From positions 122,078,001 to 122,142,000 of the forward strand of contig OZ260662.1 of NCBI GenBank assembly GCA_965285935.1: DNA of 64,000 bases, in the 5' to 3' direction. This DNA comes from Ophelia neglecta (taxonomy: Eukaryota). Of the stretch, positions 30,001-60,000 are shown in pieces (the stretch's first letter is position 1; each line of letters opens with the position of its first letter). The position numbers are program-made.

Positions 30001-33000
30001 CTGGTAAAATGGTCTGTGATCACCAAAACGTTGGCGAAACCACCTTTGGAGTTTTCTAGTGACAGGAAGTCCATGGATACCAGTTCCAAGGGCTGTGTGG
30101 TTTTAATACTGACTAGTGGGGCGTGCTGGTTGATTGGTGTCTTCCTCCTGATACAGCGATCACATCGTTTGACCCATTGCTTGATTGACTCGGTCATACC
30201 TGGCCAGTAGAATCGTTCTCGAATAAGTTGGAGAGTTCTGTCCTGTCCAGGGTGTCCCATATTGTCGTGCAGAGATTCCAATGCATGTCTCTGGAGGCTG
30301 TGTGGTAGTACAATTTGATATCGTTCTTCTTCGTTGATCTCTGCTCGGCGACATAACACTCCTCGTACCATCACTAACCGCGGCTGCTCTCTGACAAAGG
30401 GCCTTACTAATTCAGAAGGTATGGGACCACAATACTTGCTCTGGACCAATCTAATTACTTCACGGATGGCAAGATCGTCTTGCTGGGCTCTTCTCAGATG
30501 CCTATTTTCTGCTACCGGATCTTCTTCATCTAGTTCGAAGATGGCATTCGTCATGCATATAGTATCCAGCAGTTTCGCACTTGGTGTCTGTAGACTACTG
30601 CAGATAGTTGCCACTGACTCGACATTGACCTCATTGTAATACTCATTTCCTCTGTGTGGTAGACGGGATAAAATGTCTGCATCGACATTGTTCACTCCGG
30701 GTCGGTATTTGATTGAGAACTTGTAATTTGCTAAGGCAGCGACCCAACGATGACCGGTGGCATCCAGTTTCGCAGTTGTCAAGATGTAAGTGAGTGGGTT
30801 ATTATCAGTGTGTACGGTGAACTCGGGTGCGCCATACAAGTACTGACTAAATTTCTCTGTTATAGCCCACTTCAAACAGAGGAATTCGAGCTTGTGCTGG
30901 ATAATTCTTTTCGGTTCTCTTTAGTCCACGGCTGGCAAACGCAATTGGCTTCAACACCCCTTCATGGTCCTGGTAAAGGACAGCGCCAAGGCCTTCATTG
31001 CTGGCGTCAGTGTGGAGATGAAACTTGAGTGTTGTAGATGGGTATGATAATACTGGAGGTGAAGTTAAAGCATCCTTAAGGCTTCGAAAGGATGTCTCTT
31101 CCTCCTCTTCCCATTTCCACGGCTTTGGCCGGATTACAATCTTTTTGCCCTTCTTACGCCGTTCTCCACCCTTAAGATCATTCAGCGGACGAGCCTTGCT
31201 AGCAAAGTTCTTGACAAATGAGCGGTAATAGCCGGCAAACCCTAGGAACTGAGACAACTCTTTCACACAGGTAGGGGTAGGCCACTCCTTTATCCTAGCT
31301 ACTTTGTCAGGATCAGTCTCTACACCATTGGCAGTCATCACATGTCCAAGAAATTTCACTCGACTCTTGAGAAAGGAGCACTTCTTCGTTGATAGTTTTA
31401 AACCGCACTCCTCAATACGTTGAAATACTTTCCCAATATTGGCTAGATGTTCCTCAAACGTACGACTGAAGATGATTATATCATCGAGATAAATCACGCA
31501 GATTTTGTGATTCAGGTCCCCGAGCATGTCCTCCATCATGCGCTGATATGTCGCAGGCGCATTTGTCAAGCCAAACGCCATCCTGTTCCACTCAAAGAAG
31601 CCGAGGGGTCCAGCAGTGAAGGCTGTGTAAGCCTTGTCATTCTCGTTGATCTTTATCTGATGATAACCTGACTTCATATCTAAGACGCTAAAGTACTTTG
31701 CCCCATCCAGACAATCGAGTATGTCCTCTAACCGTGGTAGAGCGTAAGAGTCCTGGATTGTCCTTTGGTTCAACTGACGGAAGTCAATACACAGGCGTAG
31801 GTCACCATTTTTTCGACGAGCGATCACCATGTTTGATGCCCACGGACTTCGAGAGTGGCGTATCAATCCAGTGTTGAGTAAGGTTTGCAGATGATCCCTA
31901 ACTTCATCGTAACATGCGGGAGGGATACGGCGGTATGGCTGCTTGAATGGTTGCTGGTTGTTCAAATTGATATTGATCTCCGCAGTAGGGTGACATCCTA
32001 CGTCAGTATCGCTGTGACTGAAGATATGTGTCCATGACTACAAAAGTTCTTTCATCTCATTGAATTCAGCTTCGGTGCAGGCTGTATCGTCTTGATCGAA
32101 GTCTAACTTGAGACCAGGTGGTAAGTCTACTCTCGGGTGATCATTTGAAGATTGGTCAGGTGAAGTGCCAGGTAAGTCGACGGGCGGTAGTATAGTCACG
32201 GGTTGTAGCTCGCAAAGGATGGCTCTTGGGGGGATGACTAAAGTCTGCAGCGAGTGATTGGTGATGCGGACTGGGATGGGCAACTGGTGATCAGGTGAGA
32301 AGTTGTTCACCCCGGGGGCGATCTCTGCAGCATCAGGTAAGATCAACTTGGATGTCGACTGTAACATAGCCGTACATTGCCGGTATGGTATGTTGTCAGT
32401 AGTATAACCCTGGACAGTCATGGTCTTATTGGGAGGTACTACTATGGATTGGTCTTCACTACTCTTGACAATGGCTAACCGGCCGGCACGGTTGACTTTG
32501 CGTTCCTGTATCGACATACATCGGAAGGCTAGATACCACGGGTTAGTAAGTGGGGCTCTTTGGAGGTATCTTTCACCATATGTCTCAAGAGTGTCCGCTT
32601 GGACAGCTCGGAGAAAGTTGGTACCTAAATTTATGGGGACATTTGAACTAAAGGGAGTATCACGAGTTACTAACAATAAACATGGCTTTTCTAGATTCGG
32701 CATAATACTAGGCACCTTCAAAACAACTTCCACTACTCCAATGTAGTCAAGTAATTGACCACTAGCACTCTCTACTTCCAATAAGGATTCTAATGATTGC
32801 AAAGTTACACCTCTGGGTTCTAATCTCTCTCTAAAAAAGGTTTCACTCACCGTTGAAACACCAGACCCTGTGTCCAATAAAGCACTGACACAAACATTAG
32901 AGACATGAGGGTAAGTAGTACCTAGCTTTTCATCACCATTCATATTTACATTCAAATTCACAGAGACATCATCATTTTTCATCTTGTTTTCAGACTCGAT

Positions 33001-57000: not shown

Positions 57001-60000
57001 CGACATTGACCTCATTGTGATACTCATTTCCTCTGTGTGGTAGACGGGATAAAATGTCTGCATCGACATTGTTCACTCCGGGTCGGTATTTGATTGAGAA
57101 CTTGTAATTTGCTAAGGCAGCGACCCAACGATGACCGGTGGCATCCAGTTTCGCAGTTGTCAAGATGTAAGTGAGTGGGTTATTATCAGTGTGTACGGTG
57201 AACTCGGGTGCGCCATACAAGTACTGACTAAATTTCTCTGTTATAGCCCACTTCAAACAGAGGAATTCGAGCTTGTGTGCTGGATAATTCTTTTCGGTTC
57301 TCTTTAGTCCACGGCTGGCAAACGCAATTGGCTTCAACACCCCTTCATGGTCCTGGTAAAGGACAGCGCCAAGGCCTTCATTGCTGGCGTCAGTGTGGAG
57401 ATGAAATTTGAGTGTTGTAGATGGGTATGATAATACTGGAGGTGAAGTTACAGCATCCTTAAGGCTTCGAAAGGATGTCTCTTCCTCCTCTTCCCATTTC
57501 CACGGCTTTGGCCGGATTACAATCTTTTTGCCCTTCTTACGCCGTTCTCCACCCTTAAAATCATTCAGCGGACGAGCCTTGCTAGCAAAGTTCTTGACAA
57601 ATGAGCGGTAATAGCCGGCAAACCCTAGGAACTGAGACAACTCTTTCACACAGGTAGGGGTAGGCCACTCCTTTATCCTAACTACTTGGTCAGGATCAGT
57701 CTCTACACCATTGGCAGTCATCACATGTCCAAGAAATTTCACTCGACTCTTGAGAAAGGAGCACTTCTTCGTTGATAGTTTTAAACCGCACTCCTCAATA
57801 CGTTGAAATACTTTCCCAATATTGGCTAGATGTTCCTCAAACGTACGACTGAAGATGATTATATCATCGAGATAAATCACGCAGATTTTGTGATTCAGGT
57901 CCCCGAGCATGTCCTCCATCATGCGCTGATATGTCGCAGGCGCATTTGTCAAGCCAAACGCCATCCTGTTCCACTCAAAGAAGCCGAGGGGTCCAGCAGT
58001 GAAGGCTGTGTAAGCCTTGTCATTCTCGTTGATCTTTATTTGATGATAACCTGACTTCATATCTAAGACGCTAAAGTACTTTGCCCCATCCAGACAATCG
58101 AGTATGTCCTCTAACCGTGGTAGAGCGTAAGAGTCCTGGATTGTCCTTTGGTTCAACTGACGGAAGTCAATACACAGGCGTAGGTCACCATTTTTTCGAC
58201 GAGCGATCACCATGTTTGATGCCCACGGACTTCGAGAGTGGCGTATCAATCCAGTGTTGAGTAAGGTTTGCAGATGATCCCTAACTTCATCGTAACATGC
58301 GGGAGGGATACGGCGGTATGGCTGCTTGAATGGTTGCTGGTTGTTCAAATTGATATTGATCTCCGCAGTAGGGTGACATCCTACGTCAGTATCGCTGTGA
58401 CTGAAGATATGTGTCCATGACTTCAAAAATTCTTTCATCTCATTGAATTCAGCTTCGGTGCAGGCTGTATCGTCTTGATCGAAGTCTAACTTGAGACCAG
58501 GTGGTAAGTCTACACTCGGGTGATCATTTGAAGATTGGTCAGGTGAAGTGCCAGGTAAGTCGACGGGCGGTAGTATAGTCACGGGTTGTAGCTCGCAAAG
58601 GATGGCTCTTGGGGGGATGACTAAAGTCTGCAGCGAGTGATTGGTGATGCGGACTGGGATGGGCAACTGGTGATCAGGTGAGAAGTTGATCACCCCGGGG
58701 GCGATCTCTGCAGCATCAGGTAAGATCGACTTGGATGTCGACTGTAACATAGCCGTACATTGCCGGTATGGTATGTTGTCAGTAGTATAACCCTGGACAG
58801 TCATGGTCTTATTGGGAGGTACTACTATGGATTGGTCTTCACTACTCTTGACAATGGCTAACCGGCCGGCACGATTGACTTTGCGTTCCTGTATCGACAT
58901 ACATCGGAAGGCTAGATACCACGGGTTAGTAAGTGGGGCTCTTTGGAGGTATCTTTCACCATATGTCTCAAGAGTGTCCGCTTGGACAGCTCGGAGAAAG
59001 TTGGTACCTAAATTTATGGGGACATTTGAACTAAAGGGAGTATCACGAGTTACTAACAATAAACATGGCTTTTCTAGATTCGGCATAATACTAGGCACCT
59101 TCAAAACAACTTCCACTACTCCAATGTAGTCAAGTAATTGACCACTAGCACTCTCTACTTCCAATAAGGATTCTAATGATTGCAAAGTTACACCTCTGGG
59201 TTCTAATCTCTCTCTAAAAAAGGTTTCACTCACCGTTGAAACACCAGACCCTGTGTCCAATAAAGCACTGACACAAACATTAGAGACATGAGGGTAAGTA
59301 GTAACTAGCTTTTCATCACCATTCATATTTACATTCAAATTCACAGAGACATCATCATTTTTCATCTTGTTTTCAGACTCGATATTCAATGCATTAATAG
59401 AATCAAATTCACATTTATCTACACTACATTCATCTTCAAAAAATACAATTTCAATATTAGATATGTTGGTGTCACCGACGAGTTGTGGGGGCTGCCTCTC
59501 CTGACCTATCGACGTGCCCCGGTAGAAGTAGGTCCGCTCTGGTTTAAATGATGGGTTATTACTGTACATTGGTATTGGGTGGGACCGAAATTCCCACATC
59601 GCCAACATTGGATGGGTCGACGCTGTCTTGGCGGAGCTGAGGTACCAGGGTGCATGGGTATATCACGGTGAGTTCCATAGTCCGTGGGCTGTCTCGAAGC
59701 AGATTCAGGTGGTGTAGCGTAGTTCGTGGCAGAAGCTGGTGAGAACCCAGTATTAACCGGAGACGAGAACGACAGGCTACTGTAATAATCATTGGGTGCC
59801 ATCATAACGGAAGGATCACCATACCCCGGTAAGTTGTTGTATGAAGGAGCAGGTTGCAGAGGTGAGTGATAAGAGGCAGCATGTGGGTTCAGGTTGGTAG
59901 GTTGATTCTAGCGGGATCCATGTTCCGATTTCGTTAAGCGTGACACCTGTTGCTGTAGGTTTGTAACCTGATGTTTCAAAGCTTAAAGTTCATTGTTGTC

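What the first reader, a model, noticed from the sequence alone, without database searches (positions are those of the whole stretch)
31900..58400. Staggered variant sharing shows duplication units offset from element boundaries
Seen in the ORF track: E1 and E2 share PR/gag-side variants (ENVV*, GVNNF, SKLIL, GTT). E2 and E3 share IN/RH-side variants (EQPR*, PINQR) and the deleted LTR. E3 and E4 share gag-side variants (FRQ, TNNA). E4 and E5 share IN/RH-side variants (DAVT, PVGE, EHKAD). Inference: a 3-unit array became 5 units through two unequal crossovers with breakpoints inside pol near the PR-RT linker. Discordant sites (HEST* in E1 and E5 only; QTLL/QNLL) suggest gene conversion.
Basis: partly seen in the sequence, partly recalled or inferred. 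Interest (0 to 1): 0.65.

Follow-up and report, generated by a model that had tools for sequence, protein, structure and literature searches.

The report
Tandem retrotransposon array grown by crossovers
A gypsy-type retrotransposon sits here as a head-to-tail array whose copies are mosaics of their neighbours, which is the ordinary footprint of unequal crossing-over adding copies one at a time.

Summary
Confirmed. The window holds a minus-strand tandem array (18990-60913) of a Ty3/gypsy LTR retrotransposon.

- **Staggered sharing:** among 23 informative SNPs, U2+U3 and U4+U5 sharing lies on the IN/RH side; U1+U2 and U3+U4 sharing lies on the gag/PR side (Fisher p=2e-5). No single tree explains more than 12 of 23.
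- **Model:** three ancestral units A, B, C, with U2 a B/A hybrid and U4 a C/B hybrid. Private SNPs, shared stops and the 862-bp LTR deletion also fit it.
- **Phase test:** one-period segments taken out of phase differ by 10-14 SNPs; in-phase neighbours differ by 19-33.
- **Crossover intervals:** 38290-38450 (PR-RT linker, as predicted) and 50430-50520 (RT/RNase H junction, not the linker).
- **Additions:** a 5.75-kb non-homologous duplication across the array/flank border made U0. The "deleted LTR" is an LTR with an internal deletion.
- **Discordant sites:** two SNPs and one homopolymer.

Every copy is broken, so growth was at DNA level. The structure and mechanism are well known. Assembly error cannot be excluded without reads.

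The parts
18990..24746 (.). Copy 1 of a 5.75-kb tandem duplication that spans the array/flank border. It holds 2.67 kb of flank (18990-21659), one long LTR and the 3' 2.0 kb of an internal region (U0).
   Evidence: Self-BLAST aligns 18990-24747 with 24746-30487 at 99.4% over 5761 columns. The flank copies differ by 11 SNPs (6 of them in a microsatellite) and 3 indels.
24746..30487 (.). Copy 2 of the same duplication. It runs on into unit U1. The junction at 24746/24747 joins integrase-coding sequence to flank with 2 bp of microhomology.
21662..22728 (-). Long LTR (1067 bp), the 3'-most LTR of the array. It abuts the flank exactly at its 3' end.
   Evidence: It starts TGTAAC and ends GTTACA on the minus strand.
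22729..24747 (-). U0, a partial internal region: the 3' part of pol (23781-24747, broken) and the ORF3-like tail (23088-23791).
   Evidence: It differs from U1 by 3 SNPs and 2 indels in 2116 bp.
27405..28465 (-). Long LTR, the duplicate of 21662-22728, with a private 6-bp deletion.
   Evidence: It shows 0 differences from the U0 copy in 854 bp of the 862-bp segment.
28466..34420 (-). U1 internal region (ancestral type A throughout): gag 33600-34391 (broken), pol 29521-33279 (broken), ORF3-like tail 28825-29531.
34421..34625 (-). Short LTR (205 bp) between U2 and U1. Both ends are kept; 862 bp is lost internally.
34626..40580 (-). U2 internal region, a hybrid: type B on the IN/RH/RT side and type A on the gag/PR side. 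gag 39760-40551 (broken), pol 35680-39439 (broken), ORF3-like tail 34984-35690.
38290..38450 (.). Interval holding the first inferred exchange point (x1). It lies between the protease and reverse-transcriptase parts of pol in hybrid unit U2.
   Evidence: One search gives U4-equivalent 51480-51640, mapped to U2.
40581..40785 (-). Short LTR (205 bp) between U3 and U2, with the same 862-bp loss as 34421-34625.
40786..46744 (-). U3 internal region (type B throughout): gag 45924-46715 (open), pol 41842-45603 (broken), ORF3-like tail 41144-41852.
46745..47811 (-). Long LTR (1067 bp) between U4 and U3.
47812..53770 (-). U4 internal region, a hybrid: type C on the IN/RH side and type B from the RT/RNase H junction to gag. 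gag 52950-53741 (open), pol open frame 48868-52629 (the only uninterrupted pol), ORF3-like tail 48171-48878.
50430..50520 (.). Interval holding the second inferred exchange point (x2). It lies at the RT/RNase H junction of pol in hybrid unit U4.
   Evidence: Domains are: RVT_1 ends at residue 629 and the RNase H-like domain starts at 705 of the ORF that starts at 52575.
53771..54838 (-). Long LTR (1068 bp) between U5 and U4. A PPT-like purine run lies at 54839-54851 just upstream. A PBS-like TGG... starts one base after the LTR end, at 53769.
   Evidence: Read directly. Conserved in all copies. No tRNA was available for comparison.
54839..60803 (-). U5 internal region (type C throughout): gag 59983-60774 (open), pol 55901-59662 (broken), ORF3-like tail 55198-55911.
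60804..60913 (-). Partial 5'-most LTR. Only its last ~110 bp is present. Homology stops within 8 nt of the point that bounds the 862-bp deletion of the short LTRs.
   Evidence: No LTR-like sequence was found further right.

Best explanation
A Ty3/gypsy-type LTR retrotransposon lies on the minus strand as a head-to-tail array. Neighbouring internal regions share one LTR.

Inferred history:
1. A base array held three diverged units. In element orientation it read 5'-partial LTR-C-long LTR-B-short LTR-A-long LTR-flank.
2. It gained two units by two separate in-register unequal homologous exchanges between neighbouring units on misaligned chromatids or homologues.
3. Each exchange duplicated exactly one period, starting and ending inside pol. 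It left a hybrid unit between its two parental types: U2 = B (IN/RH/RT side) + A (PR/gag side), and U4 = C (IN/RH side) + B (RT/RNase H junction to gag).
4. A third, unrelated event made the partial unit U0. This was a microhomology-mediated tandem duplication of 5.75 kb across the array/flank border.

What is shown: the block pattern of shared variants, the breakpoint intervals, the copied LTR deletion, the copied stop codons and the scar-free junctions.

What is inferred: the exchange mechanism, the earlier three-unit state and the order of events. The C/B exchange was probably first.

All copies carry inactivating changes, some shared by the duplicated blocks, so the growth was DNA recombination and not new retrotransposition.
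For: **Anatomy**
- Pfam finds RT, RNase H-like and integrase domains in that order, and a PNMA-like capsid in gag.
- A weak zinc knuckle lies between gag and pol (E=9e-4, below the curated cut-off).
- A protease D-T-G motif aligns to a molluscan relative.
- The LTR starts TGTAAC and ends GTTACA, with a purine run just upstream and a TGG one base downstream.

**Block pattern of variants**
- On the low-coordinate side only three sharing patterns occur: U1 alone, U2+U3 and U4+U5.
- On the high-coordinate side the patterns are U1+U2, U3+U4 and U5 alone.
- This is exactly what A|B,B|C,C versus A,A|B,B|C predicts.
- U1-private SNPs number 15/3/1 in the low/mid/high zones. U5-private SNPs number 0/4/6. 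Fisher p=5e-5.

**Zone distances**

| Zone | Close pairs | Other pairs |
|---|---|---|
| Low (2.1 kb) | U0-U1 3 SNPs, U2-U3 1, U4-U5 8 | other pairs 8-24 (8-9 for U2/U3 vs U5; U1 vs others 15-23) |
| High (2.24 kb) | U1-U2 6 SNPs, U3-U4 3 | 9-18 for other pairs |

**Phase test**
- Out-of-phase one-period segments differ by 10 SNPs in 6.16 kb and 14 SNPs in 7.03 kb.
- In-phase neighbours differ by 19-33 SNPs in 5.96 kb.

**Structural markers**
- The two adjacent short LTRs (34421-34625 and 40581-40785) carry the same 862-bp loss.
- The 3 SNPs inside the 862-bp segment separate U0=U1 from U4=U5.

**Shared breaks follow the blocks**
- One gag stop is shared by U1+U2.
- One pol stop is shared by U2+U3.
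- One pol frameshift is shared by U0+U1.

**Statistics:**
Against: - **Discordant SNP:** one SNP on the IN side is shared by U0, U1 and U5 but not U4.
- **Conflict near the breakpoints:** one U3+U4 SNP and one U2+U3 SNP, about 100 bp apart between the two breakpoints, cannot both be explained under either order of events. A conversion patch or a repeated mutation is needed.
- **Homopolymer:** the length pattern of one homopolymer does not fit the model.
- **Unequal divergence:** U1 and U2 differ by 6 SNPs in 2.24 kb on the gag/PR side. U2 and U3 differ by 3 SNPs in about 3.7 kb on the other side, although one event should date both. By my binomial arithmetic this is not significant, p about 0.08.
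- **Array ends:** no target-site duplication flanks the array, and its 5'-most LTR is cut short. The origin of the base array is therefore open.
- **Missing controls:** no outgroup copy polarises the variants, and no reads were available to check the assembly.
Confidence: 0.8

Rival explanations
1. Assembly artefact. The true array has fewer units or differently phased units, and the assembler traversed a repeat loop too often. That would create chimeric units at stretches that lack variants.
For: Units are 99.0-99.6% identical over 6-7 kb, which is hard to assemble. The exchange intervals are variant-free stretches of only 90-160 bp. Several indel differences are homopolymer lengths, which are typical of sequencing error.
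Against: The pattern rests on SNPs, not only indels. SNPs, a large structural marker (the 862-bp loss) and private-variant distributions all give the same blocks. The duplicated blocks have since acquired 10-14 private SNPs each, which a re-traversed path would not show. The window has no N.
Confidence: 0.1
2. Gene conversion without change of copy number. Five old, distinct units were homogenised pairwise by long conversion tracts between neighbours.
For: A few sites do call for short conversion patches or repeated mutation. Lineage-specific SNP clusters hint at conversion from elsewhere.
Against: It would need at least four abutting tracts of 2-4.5 kb that together tile every unit, switch at only two points and also carry the 862-bp LTR deletion across. 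Two exchanges explain the same data. No unit retains a segment that is unlike all the others.
Confidence: 0.06
3. The mosaics arose during reverse transcription, by template switching on co-packaged or multimeric read-through RNA. The array was then inserted as a ready-made tandem.
For: Insertion of ready-made tandems is discussed as possible for plant LTR-RT tandems (PMC11899658, Discussion). The array lacks a target-site duplication.
Against: - The hybrid units sit exactly between their parental types, in physical order.
- Inactivating changes are shared block-wise.
- Every unit, including the best, shows at least 2 frame changes and 3 or more stops against single-ORF relatives.
- One duplication includes 2.67 kb of non-element flank.

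All of this points to DNA-level events at this locus.
Confidence: 0.03

Closest known systems
Tandem LTR-retrotransposon structures sharing internal LTRs (rice TLI loci and the IDENTAM survey; PMC11899658: abstract, section 9 and Discussion read)
   Same: LTRs and internal regions alternate, with one LTR between neighbours. Units are about 99% identical. The element is gypsy-type. The unit number is expected to vary.
   Different: The host is an animal, and the named relatives are molluscan. No flanking target-site duplication is present, and the 5'-most LTR is cut short. The LTRs come in two lengths. Here the later growth steps can be placed inside pol, whereas that paper could not settle the order or mechanism of events.
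Tandem transposable elements in Drosophila made by ectopic LTR-LTR recombination and expanded by unequal exchange (McGurk and Barbash 2018, PMC5932611: passages read)
   Same: Tandems share LTRs. Unequal exchange is the expansion mechanism. That paper also reports 'internal-to-internal' junctions.
   Different: That work infers junctions from short reads across populations. Here a single assembled array shows whole hybrid units and exchange intervals of 90-160 bp.
Hybrid genes from unequal crossing-over in tandem gene arrays, such as the haemoglobin Lepore/anti-Lepore products (recalled, not from a call)
   Same: An in-register exchange between misaligned neighbours leaves parent-hybrid-parent on the duplication chromosome, with no junction scar.
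   Different: The units are broken mobile-element copies, not functional genes. The reciprocal deletion product was not seen.
Tandem arrays of non-autonomous LTR elements (Cassandra, PMC7215508; TRIMs in maize, PMC4528315, and bivalves, PMC6934838; search listings and abstract starts only)
   Same: Arrays of LTR plus internal domain, attributed to unequal crossing-over.
   Different: Those elements lack gag-pol. Here the units are full-length, though broken, 6-kb coding elements.
Single-ORF gag-pol polyproteins of molluscan Ty3/gypsy elements (P0021 from Pinctada imbricata, 1773 aa; P0056 from Mytilus trossulus, 1821 aa)
   Same: The domain order is the same: PNMA-like capsid, zinc knuckle, protease, RT, RNase H, integrase and a long C-terminal tail. 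Identity to the U4 pol frame is 49-50%, with 89-90% of the query covered.
   Different: In this window the homology is spread over three frames, with stops, in every unit. The best hit of any source is only 55% identical, so the exact family is not in the protein set.

Membership tests
Ty3/gypsy (Metaviridae-type) LTR retrotransposon | pol domain order protease - RT - RNase H - integrase | tested here: met
   Pfam finds RVT_1, RT_RNaseH(_2), Integrase_H2C2 and rve in that order in U4 and U5. The protease D-T-G region aligns to P0021 upstream of RT. No Pfam protease hit was found at E<=1.
Ty3/gypsy (Metaviridae-type) LTR retrotransposon | gag with a capsid-like domain and a zinc knuckle | tested here: met
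   PNMA (PF14893) scores E=3e-7, above its cut-off. The zf-CCHC match is weak and below its cut-off (E=9e-4 to 2e-3), in a separate frame between gag and pol.
Ty3/gypsy (Metaviridae-type) LTR retrotransposon | Long terminal repeats with TG...CA ends and short inverted termini, a purine tract before the 3' LTR and a primer-binding site after the 5' LTR | tested here: inconclusive
   TGTAAC...GTTACA ends and a 13-nt purine-rich run directly upstream are conserved in 6 of 6 copies. A TGG... stretch starts one base after the LTR, but no tRNA was available to test complementarity (ARAGORN found 0 genes in the window).
Ty3/gypsy (Metaviridae-type) LTR retrotransposon | Target-site duplication of 4-6 bp flanking the insertion | tested here: not met
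   The flanks at the two array ends do not match. The 5'-most LTR is truncated, so the original edge is probably lost.
Tandem LTR-retrotransposon array with shared internal LTRs | Alternating LTR and internal regions, exactly one LTR between adjacent internal regions, all in one orientation | tested here: met
   Seven LTR copies (four long, two short, one partial) alternate with six internal regions. Between U0 and U1, however, the sequence is not a bare shared LTR: the U1-side LTR is followed by 2.67 kb of duplicated flank and a non-homologous junction. No within-unit repeat was found.
Tandem LTR-retrotransposon array with shared internal LTRs | One target-site duplication around the whole array (single insertion origin) | tested here: not met
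   The test is uninformative because one end is truncated.
Product of in-register unequal homologous exchange (parent-hybrid-parent) | A hybrid unit lies between its two parental types, with one switch point per hybrid and no junction scar | tested here: met
   44 of 50 sites in U2 and 27 of 33 in U4 fit a single switch. The misfits are mainly private changes of the neighbours. The alignment is collinear through both intervals.
Product of in-register unequal homologous exchange (parent-hybrid-parent) | The duplicated block is exactly one period and more alike than in-phase neighbours | tested here: met
   10 SNPs in 6160/6164 bp and 14 SNPs in 7026/7033 bp, against 19-33 SNPs in phase.
Product of in-register unequal homologous exchange (parent-hybrid-parent) | Copy-number polymorphism or reciprocal deletion alleles at the locus | not testable with these tools
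   No other haplotype of this locus could be reached.

The most novel reading that the evidence does not exclude
One point in the LTR may be a recurrent break or exchange site, possibly the U3/R border (about 45 nt upstream of an AATAAA). The 862-bp deletion of the short LTRs and the truncation of the 5'-most LTR end within 8 nt of each other there. In addition, the small discordant patches near the pol exchange points may be crossover-associated conversion tracts. If both hold, the array records structure-specific fragility of a retroelement and the fine anatomy of natural unequal exchanges in an invertebrate germ line.
Probability: 0.12. Interest if true: 0.45.

Novelty: new member of a known kind. 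Interest (0 to 1): 0.3.

Why it matters
Tandem LTR-retrotransposon arrays are now known to be common and polymorphic in plants and flies. How they grow is still argued: LTR-LTR recombination, insertion of ready-made tandems, or later unequal exchange.

This locus is a clean case, apparently from an invertebrate, in which the later growth steps can be read directly:
- Two one-period exchanges lie inside pol.
- One microhomology-mediated duplication crosses into the flank.
- All three copy pre-existing inactivating changes.

It supports DNA-level expansion as the route from a small tandem towards satellite-like arrays. It does not change that picture.

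Tried and rejected
**LTR models**
- A 112-bp LTR (the stretch present at both array ends): rejected. No purine tract precedes it, its inverted termini are imperfect, and the flanks give no target-site duplication.
- The 862-bp segment as the LTR itself: rejected. No PBS or PPT lies next to it.
- The 862-bp segment as a foreign insertion with a 6-bp duplication: not supported. The short LTR is not a clean empty site, because two further bases are missing. The segment has no other copy in the window.

**Exchange models**
- A single exchange with a two-unit offset: rejected. 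It predicts U2 like U4, which is not seen.
- A recombination hot spot in pol: not supported. By my own arithmetic, two random points in a 6.16-kb unit fall within 1.21 kb of each other with probability of about 0.35.
- Splitting the three ancestral types into an earlier two-unit state: no significant zone heterogeneity (counts).

**Searches that found nothing**
- The missing part of the 5'-most LTR to the right of 60913.
- Similarity between the flank and the element.
- tRNA genes in the window to test the PBS: 0 found.
- Pfam matches for eight further frames, including flank ORFs and the ORF3-like tail; the only hit was the weak zinc knuckle.

- One search failed on a slash in a search term and was redone.

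**Correction to a note**
- My note says 11 of 19 U1-private SNPs lie in one stretch. The right count is 10 of 19 SNPs plus 1 indel.

Full report
**What is there**

The window has no N. Nothing suggests human origin. The named relatives of its retroelement proteins are molluscan (Pinctada, Mytilus, Batillaria), and the best hit of any source is 55% identical. The host is therefore unnamed, probably an invertebrate.

Self-comparison shows a tandem array from 18990 to 60913, well beyond the finding's 31900-58400. Start-to-start spacings are about 5740, 6158-6164 and 7026-7033 bp.

The element is on the minus strand. Its parts are:
- **gag:** a PNMA-like capsid.
- **A short frame with a weak zinc knuckle**.
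- **pol:** a protease D-T-G region, followed by RT, RNase H-like and integrase domains.
- **An 'ORF3':** it is homologous to the C-terminal tail of single-ORF relatives.

This is a Ty3/gypsy-type LTR retrotransposon.

**LTRs and unit map**

Read on the minus strand, a 13-nt purine-rich run is followed at once by TGTAAC. About 1067 bp later the repeat ends GTTACA. One base further on, a TGG... stretch begins. I take this as the LTR. The PBS could not be tested against a tRNA.

Seven LTR copies alternate with six internal regions:
- **Long LTRs:** 21662-22728, 27405-28465, 46745-47811 and 53771-54838.
- **Short LTRs (205 bp):** 34421-34625 and 40581-40785. Both lack the same internal 862 bp.
- **Partial LTR:** 60804-60913, a 110-bp remnant at the 5' end of the array.

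The internal regions are U0 (partial), U1, U2, U3, U4 and U5.

**The observation**

In a six-unit alignment I scored each variable site by which units share a state, printing bins and patterns only. The staggered sharing is real.

- On the IN/RH side the only recurrent patterns are U1 alone (shared with U0), U2+U3 and U4+U5.
- On the gag/PR side the patterns are U1+U2, U3+U4 and U5 alone.

Of the 23 informative SNPs, the two pattern classes separate almost perfectly by position (12/0 against 1/9, Fisher p=2e-5). 103 of 253 site pairs are incompatible, and the best single tree explains 12 of 23. U1-private and U5-private SNPs are distributed 15/3/1 and 0/4/6 over the low, mid and high zones, with p=5e-5.

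Zone distance matrices give the groups (U0,U1), (U2,U3), (U4,U5) on one side and (U1,U2), (U3,U4), U5 on the other.

One-period segments taken out of phase differ by 10 SNPs in 6.16 kb and 14 SNPs in 7.03 kb. In-phase neighbours differ by 19-33 SNPs in 5.96 kb.

**History and mechanism**

The simplest account has three diverged ancestral units A, B and C (0.4-1.0% apart) and two in-register unequal exchanges between neighbours:
- U1 = A
- U2 = B (IN/RH/RT side) + A (PR/gag side)
- U3 = B
- U4 = C (IN/RH side) + B (the rest)
- U5 = C

The first exchange also copied the A|B junction with its short LTR. This explains why two adjacent LTRs carry the same 862-bp loss. The second exchange copied a long LTR.

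Single-switch fits are 44 of 50 sites for U2 (p<=0.0002) and 27 of 33 for U4 (p<=0.002). Two of the non-neighbour controls show no switch (p=1.0), and a third, U2 against U1/U4, is weakly significant (36 of 51 sites, p<=0.032).

The exchange intervals are:
- **38290-38450 in U2**, between protease and RT.
- **50430-50520 in U4**, at the RT/RNase H junction. This is 0.96-1.21 kb from the first in unit coordinates.

By my arithmetic, two random points would lie that close about 35% of the time, so I see no hot spot.

The block pair from the C/B event is slightly more diverged than the pair from the B/A event, which suggests that the C/B event came first. This order is an inference.

**A third, different duplication**

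18990-24746 and 24746-30487 are tandem copies at 99.4% identity. Each holds 2.67 kb of non-element flank, a long LTR and the 3' end of unit A. The junction joins integrase-coding sequence to flank with 2 bp of microhomology. It is therefore a non-homologous event, not an unequal exchange.

U0 shares nearly all of U1's private variants.

**State of the genes (counts only)**

The counts below are against the U4 frames.

| Unit | gag | pol |
|---|---|---|
| U0 (967 bp of pol only) | absent | 1 stop, 1 frameshift |
| U1 | 1 stop (shared with U2) | 2 stops, 2 frameshifts |
| U2 | 1 stop (shared with U1) | 2 stops, 1 frameshift |
| U3 | open | 1 stop |
| U4 | open | open |
| U5 | open | 1 stop |

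- **Sharing of the pol breaks:** one stop is in U2+U3, one stop is in U0+U1+U5, one frameshift is in U0+U1, and the rest are private.
- **ORF3-like tail:** it differs in frame length through one homopolymer in U0-U3. U5 has two in-frame indels.
- **Against single-ORF molluscan relatives:** every unit, U4 included, shows at least 2 frame changes between successive matches and 3-6 stops inside them. Those relatives are only about 50% identical, so part of this may be natural gene organisation.

Breaks shared block-wise show that already-broken DNA was copied.

**What does not fit**

- One IN-side SNP is shared by U0, U1 and U5 but not U4.
- One U3+U4 SNP and one U2+U3 SNP between the two breakpoints conflict under either order of events.
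- The length pattern of one homopolymer is discordant.

Also unexplained:
- No target-site duplication flanks the array.
- The truncation point of the 5'-most LTR lies within 8 nt of the edge of the 862-bp deletion.

**Rivals**

- **Assembly error** cannot be excluded without reads. It is made less likely by the agreement of SNPs, a structural marker and private-variant distributions, and by the 10-14 SNPs that separate the duplicated blocks.
- **Pure gene conversion** would need four long abutting tracts.
- **A reverse-transcription origin** is contradicted by the flank-inclusive duplication and the block-wise shared breaks.

**Comparison with what is known**

Tandem LTR-retrotransposon arrays with shared internal LTRs are described as common and polymorphic in plants (PMC11899658: abstract, section 9 and Discussion read). 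Its Discussion states that the arrays "also seem to be" widespread in Drosophila and that they occur in kangaroo centromeres.

In Drosophila, LTR-LTR ectopic recombination and unequal exchange are the stated mechanisms (PMC5932611: passages read). Arrays of Cassandra and TRIM elements appeared only in search listings.

The parent-hybrid-parent pattern is the classical signature of unequal crossing-over in gene arrays (Lepore/anti-Lepore haemoglobins, recalled from memory).

My three effective literature searches listed no paper whose title or abstract start, as listed, mentions a gypsy array in a mollusc dissected unit by unit. That is a limited search of open-access text, and I did not see the supplements.

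**Verdict**

This is a tidy new example of a known kind of structure and mechanism. Interest is 0.3.

Noticed in passing
18990-30487: A 5.75-kb tandem duplication spans the left border of the array. It contains flank plus an LTR plus the 3' end of one unit, has a 2-bp microhomology junction at 24746/24747, and lies outside the finding's span.
   Followed up: yes
60804-60913, compared with 34523, 40683, 46847 and 53874: The 5'-most LTR is cut off within 8 nt of the LTR position that also bounds the 862-bp deletion of the two short LTRs. An AATAAA lies about 45 nt downstream, so the point may be near the U3/R border.
   Followed up: partly
U0 and U1, IN/ORF3 side (within 22729-24747 and 28466-31100): 10 of the 19 U1-private SNPs, plus 1 indel, fall in one stretch of about 600 bp, and most are shared with U0. 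This cluster is specific to one lineage and may reflect conversion from another copy of the family.
   Followed up: partly
47709-47840 and its equivalents in the other units: The first ~130 bp of the LTR, together with the purine run, is unusually variable: 8 events, of which 4 are among the 10 U4-private SNPs.
   Followed up: no
6699-7340; 19387-19745; 61866-62152: An old dispersed repeat at 6699-7340 matches 19387-19745 (74%) and 61866-62152 (63%) collinearly. The array, with about 2.9 kb of neighbouring DNA, may therefore sit inside an older repeat copy.
   Followed up: partly
21531-21585 and 27274-27328: A (GGAT)n microsatellite of about 14 copies lies in both copies of the duplicated flank. 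6 of the 11 SNPs between the flank copies lie in it.
   Followed up: no
301-1086 and 12256-13225: Two pieces of another dispersed repeat, 83-85% identical, unrelated to the array.
   Followed up: no
48171-48878 and its equivalents in the other units: The 'ORF3' after integrase has no Pfam match, but it is homologous to the long C-terminal tail of single-ORF molluscan relatives. It is therefore a detached end of pol and not an env-like gene.
   Followed up: partly
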